Assembly (NCBI GenBank): GCA_965649765.1
Contig: OZ287751.1
Span: 95,666,001-95,730,000, forward strand
Length of the DNA: 64,000 bases
Source of the DNA: Bispira polyomma
Taxonomy: Eukaryota
Reading direction: 5' to 3'
Of this stretch, positions 30,301 through 33,300 are shown one piece after another. Numbering within the stretch: position 1 is the first letter of the stretch; the number at the start of each line of letters is the position of its first letter. The notes below the pieces were generated by a model. That model saw only the letters and a list, made by a program, of their open reading frames with translations. It was not told the origin of the DNA and made no database searches. Both the position numbers and the translations under genes were made by a program.

Positions 30301-33300
30301 CACTTATTTGATAGTATAATACCAATAGACTCTATTAACATGCTTCAGATTAAAACTAACTCAAGCAGGATAATATTACTTATCAAAACACTTAGCCCAA
30401 CATACACCCTCCACATTAATACATACCAACTCAGTATGCCACACACATACACACCCTTGTCATTCCCTCCCTCCCTCCCTCCCTCCCTCCCACCCACCCA
30501 CCCACCCACACCCACACCCACACACCCACACACACCCACCCACACACCCACACACACAATTTTTTGGGTGTGAAAGAAGGTGTGCAGTATGTGTGTGTGT
30601 GAAGACAAGGAAAGGCTAGAAAGTATAATATGTGACTATATAGGTCAAACTCATGTCAGAGCAACCTAGTTTTTTTAGGACTTTTAAAACAGTTATTATA
30701 GTTTTTTATTAAGAAAACGAATTGACTGCATTATCCCCAGAATTAAAAAAAAGATACCTGGTAAGTATGGAGTTAAATTTTCGGGCCAATTTCATGAAAA
30801 TGCTGTCACAACACCAAATCTGCACAATCCCATCAATGAGTGAGACTAGCCTTGCTAGGCTCACTCATGAACAAAATCTATCGAAAAATAAAAACAAATA
30901 TCTGGGAGAATATGGGAAATTAGAAGGAAAACGTATGTTGGGAGCAGAAATTAGACCAAAGTTATTGTTTTCGCGAAGTGAATTAGGACTATACGCGATA
31001 ATAACAGATTTTCACTATAAAACTTATACGTTTTCGAGTCCCCGAATAGCAATTTCGCTCCAGTTTCCCCAAAAATTCGGCCCGTAATCGGATAACCGGG
31101 CGCCCTGTCTCACCCCTAGTTAAAACGCTAAAAAATTGGTCCCCATATTTTATTTGATGCTCTGGATGCATTATAAAAAAAACTACACGACCACACCATA
31201 CACCGTGAAAGTGAAATAGGCAGTTTTCATTTGGGGTGCAACATATTTTATCAGAAAATAAGCTGCGAGGGCCATACTGGGAAATATGCAGTCGAGGCCA
31301 GGACAATATGGCTTGAGAGCATTTTTCAGAATTTTTAATAATAATTTTCAACAAAAAATTTTAGAGACCAGACGTCTATAATATAATATAAAATAGTTAG
31401 GCCTGACTAGTTTTAACCAAAAGGATTGCTTTGTAAGTAATATGGCCCGCTGCAATGATATGGCCTCCGACTTCGGGGCCATATTTGGAAATATGTTATG
31501 TCACGTAATCGCATTTTAACCAATAGGATCGCTGGATTTGCTGCTGAGGTATATCAAAACTTAATATTCTGTTTAGCTGGTTTTAGGTAATGGTATTGCG
31601 CTATAAAATGGGAATATGTGACATTTTTTTGACATGCAGTATTTGTAAACAGGATTTATTATGTATCATTAGTTATCTGGTCTTTCCACAATGATCTCTG
31701 TTTTTGTGATATTCAACAGATACATCAGAAATTCAATACCCTAATGATGTGCTGGAGTAAAATGTGCCATAAAAACAGACCATTATCTGCAGACAATTGC
31801 CTAACATGTTAACACAGCCAAACACTACACATCTCCAATATCACGAGGGCTATAACATTATATGCAAAGGGATGTAGAATAAAATGATAATCATCTTGCA
31901 AAAATCATCGGGTTTTTTATATTAAAATCCTAGTTTATATCACATTACAAGTGAAATTTTTCAGGTTTGAATAATTCACATGTTTTTAATTAAACAGTAC
32001 AAGAAATGGAAGTATGAAAACACAAATAAAGGACTATAAACAATGTTCAAAACTGCCATCTGCAAGCAAGTTTATTTCTTGCAAGTCTCAGGTTGGGCAG
32101 TTATCTTTACAGAGTTGCAAGCCCATCTTGCTTGTAAATTAAGATAAAAAGAAATTTGGGCAAACTCAATTATATATAGTAGCCGTGTATAGTTTCATAC
32201 ATTGAAATAGGAATCACAGTATACACCTCTGAATATTATTATTATATCGATCTTTTGCAGACCAGGCAGGGAACTTTTGGCTTGGGCTTGTAAAGTAACC
32301 AGCACGCTGGGTATGTGACTTTCTAGTTGTAGAAATGCCTTCTTAATTTTTATGTATGTTCTATTATAGAAACAAAATCTTGCTTTGACTACAGTCCACC
32401 CCCTTGAAATAATACCACAAATCTGTCTTACCAAGATCCTTGCCGAAACCTGACTGTTTAAATCCCCCAAACGGCGAGGCCACGTCGGTTTTGTTATAGG
32501 TGTTGATAAAGACGGTTCCGGCCTGTAGGACGTCAGCCACGTACAGGGCTTTGTTAATGTCCTTGGTAAACACACCAGAGGCCAGACCAAACTCAGTGTC
32601 ATTGGCACTTCTGAGGACACCTTCTACGTCACTGAAAGGGAAAGGGAGAAATGTAAGTGTCATTGGCACTTCTTAGTACACCCTCTACGTCACTGAAAGC
32701 AAATAGGAGAAATGTAGGACTCATAAGCACTTCTGAGGACACCCTCTACATCACTGAAAGGGAAAGAGAGAAATGTAAGTGTCATTGGCACTTCTTAGTA
32801 CACCCTCTACGTCACTGAAAGCGAAAAGGGAAAGGGAGAAATGTAAGTATCATTGGCAATTCTGAGGACACCTTCTATGTCACTGAAAGCAAAAAGGAGA
32901 AATGTGGGACTCATAGGCACTTCTGAGGACACCTAATACGTCACTGAAAGGGAAAGAGAGAAATGTCAACAAATGCGCTGTATTCTCTGAGCATCAGTCA
33001 TAGTGCTTTTAGCTTCTTTTTGAAAGTTTTCTGATGCCTTGATAGAATTAGGAATGCCGTTCTATATTTGGGGCTATTTGTTTCCATCTGCAGTCACAGT
33101 GGGCGCAGTAGGATGTTCATTCTATGCACACAAATGTATAGGTTTATAGTTTGAAATTACCCCTAGTGAGGTCCTGTCAACCAGTTATTTTCACTATCGG
33201 CTCCCTCAGGAAGTATACTAGCCGTGCTGCTACATACAATGCAAAGACTAACACCCATTAGCAACCAGGTACCCATTTATACACCTGGGTGGAGAGGGAC

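What the first reader, a model, noticed from the sequence alone, without database searches (positions are those of the whole stretch)
32598..32966. Five decoy 3' splice sites that lead to a stop at the next unit
Seen: each unit carries a polypyrimidine tract, CAG and the first ~35 nt of the penultimate exon (AG at 32632 real; 32693, 32754, 32815, 32883, 32944 decoys), in two alternating variants. The exon starts T|GAC, so with a 61-nt unit a decoy acceptor reads 20 codons and then hits the next unit's TGA in frame. The 68-nt unit frameshifts instead. Inference: mis-selection gives a premature stop well upstream of the last junction, i.e. an NMD substrate and a possible dosage rheostat. How the last AG wins over five earlier ones is unexplained.
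Basis: partly seen in the sequence, partly recalled or inferred. Interest (0 to 1): 0.7.

Follow-up and report, generated by a model that had tools for sequence, protein, structure and literature searches.

The report
Splice-acceptor "mirage" repeat in ALDH1L
Five spare copies of a splice signal lie just ahead of an exon in an invertebrate's folate-enzyme gene; this is a known repeat type ("mirage") that is common in this genome, and the copies are likely tolerated by-products, kept intact by sequence exchange with the working site, rather than a regulatory switch.

Summary
Six acceptor AGs lie at the stated places in an intact ALDH1L gene, and each of the five decoys would give a stop 197-448 nt before the last junction. 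The array is an acceptor-type "mirage" minisatellite, a class described in amphioxus; this animal's ALDH1L falls outside the chordate clade. Mirages are common here: two more sit at donors of this gene, and by eye 24 of 201 sampled donors and 8 of 201 acceptors carry one. The scan found acceptor mirages in this genome before (PAICS). The NMD-rheostat idea gains no support. Every simulated out-of-frame duplication of this boundary gives a premature stop, and 35 arrays show no more stops than chance. A spliced contig from a near relative uses AG 32632; no RNA of this organism was available, so decoy use is untested. One result I did not find in print: variants shared among decoy copies are biased to third codon positions (permutation p 0.0006) while singletons are not. 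The copies therefore likely exchange sequence with the real exon edge, which would keep them intact without a function. Cross-exon pairing is the likely, unproven reason that the innermost AG wins.

The parts
32595..32966 (-). Acceptor-type mirage array: tandem copies of the last ~24 nt of the intron plus the first ~37 nt of the exon; the innermost copy is the real boundary
   Evidence: TRF period 61 x 6.0; units cut at AG; DNA contigs with 0 differences
32632..32633 (-). Real 3' splice site AG
   Evidence: Only AG that gives the open 857-aa model; spliced contig of run X4 joins here to the exon ending at 34575
32653..32657 (-). Branch-point-like yUnAy motif, A at -23 from the real AG (predicted)
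   Evidence: Motif scan; branch point not mapped
32632..32692 (-). Unit A after decoy AG 32693 (61 nt); differs from the real exon start at 3 codons, all synonymous; in-frame TGA at 32631
32693..32753 (-). Unit B after decoy AG 32754 (61 nt); in-frame TGA at 32692
32754..32814 (-). Unit A after decoy AG 32815 (61 nt), 98% identical to the unit at 32632-32692; in-frame TGA at 32753
32815..32882 (-). Unit A' after decoy AG 32883 (68 nt, 7 nt longer pyrimidine tract); TAG at 32809 after 25 codons
32883..32943 (-). Unit B after the outermost decoy AG 32944 (61 nt); in-frame TGA at 32882. The unique intron flank upstream of 32944 is likely the ancestral intron end
32432..32631 (-). Penultimate ALDH1L exon, 200 nt, matching residues 819-884 of the 902-aa cytosolic 10-formyltetrahydrofolate dehydrogenase chain
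   Evidence: phmmer E 4.7e-32 to 7rlu_A; gene model
34575..34680 (-). Upstream exon, 106 nt; donor GT at 34574-34573; intron 1,943 nt
   Evidence: loose end of the X4 contig
9337..9392 (-). Last coding exon, after a 23,039-nt intron
   Evidence: tblastn, model, loose end of the X4 contig
9337..61776 (-). ALDH1L gene: 21 coding exons modelled, 857 aa open; the first coding exon(s) were not located
   Evidence: tree
49581..49880 (-). Donor-type mirage, 41 bp x 7.3, at the donor of exon 50012-49862
56882..57350 (-). Donor-type mirage, 47 bp x 9.9, at the donor of exon 57585-57325

Best explanation
This is a 'mirage' minisatellite, a tandem duplication of the intron-exon boundary of the penultimate ALDH1L exon, in which the innermost AG (32632) is the only one that gives the protein and the five outer copies are likely tolerated, rarely used by-products. 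Steps: (1, shown) each unit is the intron end plus the exon start, and such arrays are common at exon edges in this genome. (2, inferred) A slip between short matching words in exon and intron made the first unit; unequal exchange amplified it into A and B variants. (3, shown in a near relative, inferred here) Splicing uses 32632. (4, inferred) It wins by position, not strength: with introns of 1.9 and 23 kb the exon is defined across itself, and 32632 gives the shortest exon (200 nt, against 261-512 nt) with its full exon sequence next to it. (5, shown) Any decoy use would give a premature stop, as nearly any frame-shifting duplication would; (inferred) NMD would clear such leaks, which lowers their cost. 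(6, inferred from codon bias) The copies stay intact because they exchange sequence with, or are re-seeded from, the constrained real boundary.
For: Array anatomy. Intact single-copy gene through 32632. Spliced contig of run X4 (organism B; 2,897 nt, depth 33.8, 5 differences in 205 nt) joins 34575 to 32631 and 32432 to the last exon. Decoys score 4.3-6.9 against 4.7 for the real site on a matrix from 20 of the gene's own acceptors, so strength does not decide. Array inner ends fall within the last 100 nt of the match at 21 of 201 donor edges, against 37 of 1,669 background bins (p 1.5e-7); by eye 24 of 201 donors and 8 of 201 acceptors are mirages. Premature stops are not above chance. Shared decoy variants at codon positions 1/2/3 number 31/17/44 on 146/150/147 sites (frame-permutation p 0.0006), near-fixed ones 3/0/9 (p 0.002), singletons 37/32/39 (p 0.23); 21 arrays, CpG sites and 3 junction bases left out. 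Four-fold against zero-fold sites: odds ratio 2.7 after stratifying by base. In this array the two A units differ from the exon only at 3 synonymous codons. Amphioxus mirages, including the acceptor type in BflGb6, are reported not to disturb splicing (PMC3087553; PMC3902484). Human F7 VNTR pseudo-donors stay silent by position (PMC1557585).
Against: No RNA of this organism was found; organism B may lack the array, its run is labelled 'DNA?', and contigs drop rare isoforms. The X4 spliced contig appeared but not in the wider lay. In human data exon definition only reduces the upstream preference for 3' sites (PMC9225289 section 9), and the nearest decoy would give a 261-nt exon, equal to the gene's largest internal exon; step 4 is therefore not shown. 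By position alone acceptor arrays are not significantly enriched (8 of 201 against 37 of 1,698, p 0.13). Only 1 of 9 acceptor arrays is in frame and it carries a stop (about p 0.14 by hand), which would fit some decoy use and purging. Decoy GT/AG are better kept than other intron bases (15 of 68 sites variable against 27 expected), which selection for decoy function would also give; the arrays were chosen by eye, which biases this count. The ABCA7 VNTR shows that such arrays can leak and affect isoforms (PMC5954066).
Confidence: 0.75

Rival explanations
1. Dosage rheostat: decoys are used at a meaningful rate, the products go to NMD, and copy number tunes ALDH1L level.
For: All five decoys are intact and score as well as the real site; three of them keep the same branch-like motif position type and a fourth has one further upstream; all give stops 197-448 nt before the last junction. 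Decoy dinucleotides are well kept across arrays. Precedent: ABCA7 VNTR, where retention of one unit gives a frameshift (PMC5954066).
Against: Stops are not above chance. Similar arrays sit at roughly one in eight donors and one in 25 acceptors sampled, so nothing singles out this gene. The synonymous bias of shared variants explains intact decoys without function. No decoy junction in the one spliced contig set (weak).
Confidence: 0.08
2. Slightly harmful leak: decoys are used at a low, unregulated rate; the array is a mutational load that persists because NMD clears the products, and in-frame stop-free arrays are purged.
For: Only 2 of 35 arrays are in frame and stop-free (about 4 expected); 1 of 9 acceptor arrays is in frame; acceptor arrays are about a third as frequent as donor arrays.
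Against: None of the frame counts is significant (p 0.20 and 0.60). Decoy GT/AG are not eroded faster than neighbours, as selection against use would predict.
Confidence: 0.13
3. The array breaks the gene in this individual (the first AG wins), or it is an assembly artefact.
For: A simple first-AG rule would choose 32944; no RNA of this organism was seen.
Against: DNA contigs match the array exactly and at the expected depth. The gene is single-copy and otherwise intact. Arrays of this kind sit in many conserved myosin, kinesin and ALDH exons, which cannot all be dead.
Confidence: 0.04

Closest known systems
Amphioxus 'mirage' minisatellites (Adh3, globins BflGb6/BflGb9, troponin C, PGBD5). 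Passages read in PMC3087553 and PMC3902484; the original Adh3 paper (PMC117041) was not held and is known to me only through these two.
   Same: The unit spans the intron-exon boundary and repeats the splice signal. BflGb6 is the same acceptor type (intron 3' end plus exon start; 6 and 3 units on two haplotypes). Unit length is within the reported 10-160 bp. Normal splicing is reported.
   Different: The host is not a cephalochordate (ALDH1L outside the chordate clade, 96/96 support). The frequency estimate and the codon-position bias of decoy variants are not in the passages read.
Human F7 IVS7 37-bp VNTR (PMC1557585; abstract and Discussion read)
   Same: Boundary-spanning minisatellite with competent pseudo-sites that stay silent; the site next to the exon wins by position.
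   Different: Donor side; the 5'-to-3' scanning model proposed there fits the two donor arrays of this gene but does not carry over to an acceptor array, where the last site wins.
Human ABCA7 intron-18 25-bp VNTR (PMC5954066; passages read)
   Same: Each unit repeats a splice site; use of the next unit gives a frameshift and a predicted NMD substrate.
   Different: Donor side; leak and length effects were measured there and are untested here.
Cross-exon proximity rule (PMC9225289; abstract, passages and section 9 read)
   Same: With long flanking introns, sites closest across the exon are favoured; both introns here are long.
   Different: For human 3' sites the effect is a reduced upstream preference, not a clean reversal; not tested in this animal.

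Membership tests
Mirage minisatellite | Tandem unit spans an exon-intron boundary | tested here: met
   Unit = ~24 nt intron end + ~37 nt exon start
Mirage minisatellite | Copies duplicate the splice signal | tested here: met
   5 of 5 decoys keep tract and CAG; matrix scores 4.3-6.9 against 4.7
Mirage minisatellite | Unit of minisatellite size (10-160 bp reported) | tested here: met
   61 and 68 nt; range from PMC3087553
Mirage minisatellite | Copy-number instability | tested here: inconclusive
   One informative DNA sample for this array. At another locus, three near-identical myosin copies carry the same 53-bp donor array at 12, 17 and 24 copies.
Mirage minisatellite | Normal mRNA with no aberrant isoform | tested here: inconclusive
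   Spliced contig of organism B uses 32632; no RNA of organism A; contigs drop rare forms
Mirage minisatellite | Concerted turnover among units | tested here: met
   A-A identity 0.98, B-B 0.89, A-B 0.77-0.84; TRF also reports a 190-nt higher period
Regulated unproductive splicing (AS-NMD) | Alternative site gives a stop more than 50-55 nt upstream of the last junction (rule recalled; its validity in this animal is untested) | tested here: met
   197-448 nt
Regulated unproductive splicing (AS-NMD) | Stops more frequent than chance would give | tested here: not met
   Null 100% for out-of-frame units at this site and 88% of 20,930 simulated duplications over the gene; 33 of 35 arrays out of frame or with a stop, p 0.20
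Regulated unproductive splicing (AS-NMD) | Isoform seen in RNA, stabilised by NMD block, and regulated | not testable with these tools
   No RNA holder listed
Recursive splice site | AG directly followed by GT | tested here: not met
   Each AG is followed by TGA

The most novel reading that the evidence does not exclude
In this non-chordate animal thousands of splice sites carry mirage arrays that are kept splice-competent by exchange with the working exon edge, and their copy number sets how much of each transcript leaks into NMD: a genome-wide, fast-mutating layer of expression tuning, of which this ALDH1L array is one dial. The frequency and the exchange signal are supported here; the leak and the tuning are untested.
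Probability: 0.1. Interest if true: 0.72.

Novelty: new member of a known kind. Interest (0 to 1): 0.3.

Why it matters
The single array is ordinary for this genome. Its context has some value. (1) Mirages were described from a few amphioxus genes; here they appear at about 12% of donors and 4% of acceptors in a sample of conserved exons of a non-chordate, which would mean thousands genome-wide. (2) With RNA-seq this genome would be a natural large-scale test of how the spliceosome chooses among near-identical 3' or 5' sites at graded distances, a long-disputed question. (3) The third-position bias of shared decoy variants suggests that intronic copies and the coding edge evolve together, so intact decoys are not evidence of function. 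(4) Such arrays mislead gene prediction: one myosin profile match ran about 150 nt into an array.

Tried and rejected
RNA test: no RNA holder listed for the stretch, so junction reads of this organism could not be counted. Run X3 (second sample) has no cover at 32798-32969; two of its contigs break at GATC sites and the array holds several further cut-like sites, so it looks like a proximity-ligation library and I draw no copy-number conclusion. X4 has no contig on the array; this is not evidence of no decoy use. Strength as the reason the last AG wins: rejected. RNA structure: the real site's 26-nt upstream stretch is no more open than the nearest decoy's (0.58 against 0.58; others 0.32-0.49), uninformative. 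Read-through from the first AG (312 nt, in frame overall): blocked by TGA at 32882. Recursive splicing: no AG|GT. Micro-exons inside units: only weak GT contexts by inspection. A gradient of divergence away from the exon (simple conveyor): not seen, mismatch 0.113-0.123 at all ranks. The first retention test (309 of 334 dinucleotides kept) was replaced by alignment-based tests. Nested gene in the 23-kb intron: 140 of 213 ORFs in 1-32300 scanned, one sub-cut-off Pfam hit. Papers not held: the original mirage paper and two recalled papers on duplicated splice sites and tandem arrays. Ten paper searches showed no genome-wide mirage survey, no report outside amphioxus among invertebrates, and no codon-bias analysis; subscription journals are mostly missing and no supplements were read.

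Full report
Observation. The stretch is on the minus strand. Six AGs lie at 32944, 32883, 32815, 32754, 32693 and 32632, each after a pyrimidine tract and before a copy of the same exon start. TRF calls the array 32595-32966, period 61, 6.0 copies. The upstream exon ends at 34575 in phase 2. Only 32632 continues into the exon; the four 61-nt decoys stop at the next unit's TGA after 21 codons counting the junction Gly, and the 68-nt decoy stops at 32809 after 25. The stops lie 197-448 nt before the last junction.

The gene. The exon matches 10-formyltetrahydrofolate dehydrogenase (ALDH1L; E 1e-32). tblastn with four homologues and a splice-site search give 21 coding exons from 61776 to 9337 and 857 open codons; the first coding exon was not located. 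The last exon lies 23 kb downstream. The stretch is single-copy in G000. In a 25-row tree the protein falls outside the chordate clade that holds both Branchiostoma rows (96/96); its place among the rest is open, and no annelid, echinoderm or hemichordate row with a name was included.

Reads. Four runs were listed, none on record as RNA. Contigs of X1 and X2 (one sample) lie across the array with no differences, and the twice-present 55-nt piece has double depth, so the array is real. X4 (organism B, labelled 'DNA?') holds a 2,897-nt contig that covers 32428-32632 with 5 differences; its loose ends are the upstream exon from 34576 and the last exon. It is a spliced, transcript-like sequence that uses AG 32632. 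It did not show in the wider lay. Whether organism B has the array is unknown.

A habit of this genome. Two further arrays in this gene straddle donors: 41 bp x 7.3 and 47 bp x 9.9. To measure frequency I took exon-wise matches to four Pfam families in G000 (myosin head, aldehyde dehydrogenase, kinesin, AMP-binding). Two in-window and two long, apparently intronless matches were left out; of the remaining 226, 6 were dropped as near-identical paralogue copies and 19 were not covered by fetched DNA, leaving 201. An array (period 20 or more, 2.5 copies or more) begins within the last 100 nt of the match at 21 of 201 donor edges, against 37 of 1,669 background bins (p 1.5e-7), and at 8 of 201 acceptor edges against 37 of 1,698 (p 0.13). 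From 42 candidate rows I kept 32 by eye as true boundary copies, 24 donors and 8 acceptors, and dropped 10 as intron-only or unclear. Real splice sites in these were inferred from the profile match and the consensus, not from RNA. Three near-identical myosin copies carry one 53-bp donor array at 12, 17 and 24 copies, which shows that such arrays change length.

Are the stops designed? I simulated boundary duplications. At this acceptor 697 of 697 units of each out-of-frame class give a qualifying stop, and 140 of 697 in-frame ones; over all modelled sites of the gene 88% of 20,930 do. Among 35 arrays (32 plus the 3 in this gene), 10 have the nearest intact decoy in frame (p 0.60 against one third) and 2 are in frame and stop-free (p 0.20). 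Out-of-frame cases were counted as stop-giving without tracing each downstream. The stops need no special explanation. Acceptor arrays alone are 1 of 9 in frame, too few to judge.

Why the last AG wins. Not by strength: on a matrix from 20 of the gene's own acceptors the decoys score 4.3-6.9 and the real site 4.7; in the two donor arrays most decoys also score above the real site (small training set). The real site and three decoys have a branch-like motif at -23 or -30; the nearest decoy has one only at -32 and 32883 has none. In all three arrays of the gene the site that keeps the protein is the one closest across the exon. Both flanking introns are long, which favours exon definition, and decoys would give exons of 261-512 nt against 200. 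PMC9225289 reports a preference for cross-exon proximity and smaller exons, but for human 3' sites only a reduced upstream preference. I recall, without having been able to read it, that truncated exon sequence next to a duplicated site disfavours that site. Survival also filters: only tolerated arrays remain in essential genes. This step is inferred.

Why the decoys stay intact. The two A units differ from the real exon start at three codons, all synonymous; the B units and the 68-nt unit carry replacements too. Over 36 arrays, decoy copies of exon sequence differ from the real exon at 9.9%, 4.8% and 15.8% of first, second and third positions. Over 34 arrays (two unclear ones dropped), four-fold sites vary more than zero-fold sites after stratifying by base and removing CpG (odds ratio 2.7). 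In 21 arrays with four or more decoys, with CpG and three junction bases removed and the frame permuted per array, variants shared by several copies are biased to third positions (31/17/44, p 0.0006), near-fixed ones too (3/0/9, p 0.002), and singletons are not (37/32/39, p 0.23). Unbiased singletons argue against a mutation bias. Since decoy use gives no protein, the likeliest reading is that variants that spread in an array have passed through, or come from alleles of, the constrained real edge. The same exchange would keep GT/AG intact (15 of 68 sites variable against 27 expected; biased by my selection). Only 4 of the 21 arrays are acceptor arrays.

What is known. PMC3087553 (passages) names such repeats 'mirages', shows the acceptor type in globin BflGb6 with 6 and 3 units, and reports that they seem not to disturb splicing. 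PMC3902484 (passages) adds PGBD5 and troponin C. PMC1557585 (abstract, Discussion) shows silent but competent pseudo-donors in the F7 VNTR. PMC5954066 (passages) shows leak at the ABCA7 VNTR. PMC2812944 (passages) covers human repeats at exon-intron boundaries. My sample finds donors about three times as often affected as acceptors.

Verdict. A real, ordinary-for-this-genome mirage: a new member of a known kind. The rheostat reading is not excluded but has no positive support (about 0.08). The genome-wide frequency in a non-chordate and the sign of exchange with the coding edge did not appear in ten paper searches and lift the interest modestly: 0.3.

Noticed in passing
window 49581-49880 and 56882-57350 (-): Two donor-type mirage arrays in the same gene; most decoy donors score above the real one.
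   Followed up: yes
window 49379-49471 (-): A 93-nt copy (8 differences) of the middle of exon 47056-46863 lies about 2.4 kb upstream in another intron, close to the 41-bp array; it has no obvious splice sites of its own by inspection.
   Followed up: partly
L026 (C11), L027 (C8), L028 (C13): Three near-identical myosin gene copies on three contigs share one 53-bp donor array at 12, 24 and 17 copies.
   Followed up: partly
201 sampled exon matches in G000: Arrays that begin 0-100 nt outside the match are also frequent (14 of 201 donor edges, 10 of 201 acceptor edges, background about 2.2%); some repeat only the tract and AG.
   Followed up: no
window 9393-32431: The last intron is 23 kb, far longer than the gene's others; no nested gene by Pfam in 140 of 213 ORFs.
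   Followed up: partly
window about 33089-33469, 33851-34231, 35375-35628: Very high-copy interspersed repeats in the introns upstream of the array (summed contig depth up to 1e5-1e6).
   Followed up: no
protein P0001 (Timema, named by its source): This ALDH1L record carries the peptide of the same penultimate exon twice in tandem; exon duplication or annotation artefact.
   Followed up: no
L039 (C3:96598403): A myosin profile match ran about 150 nt into a 47-bp x 35 donor array, an example of how these arrays mislead gene prediction.
   Followed up: partly
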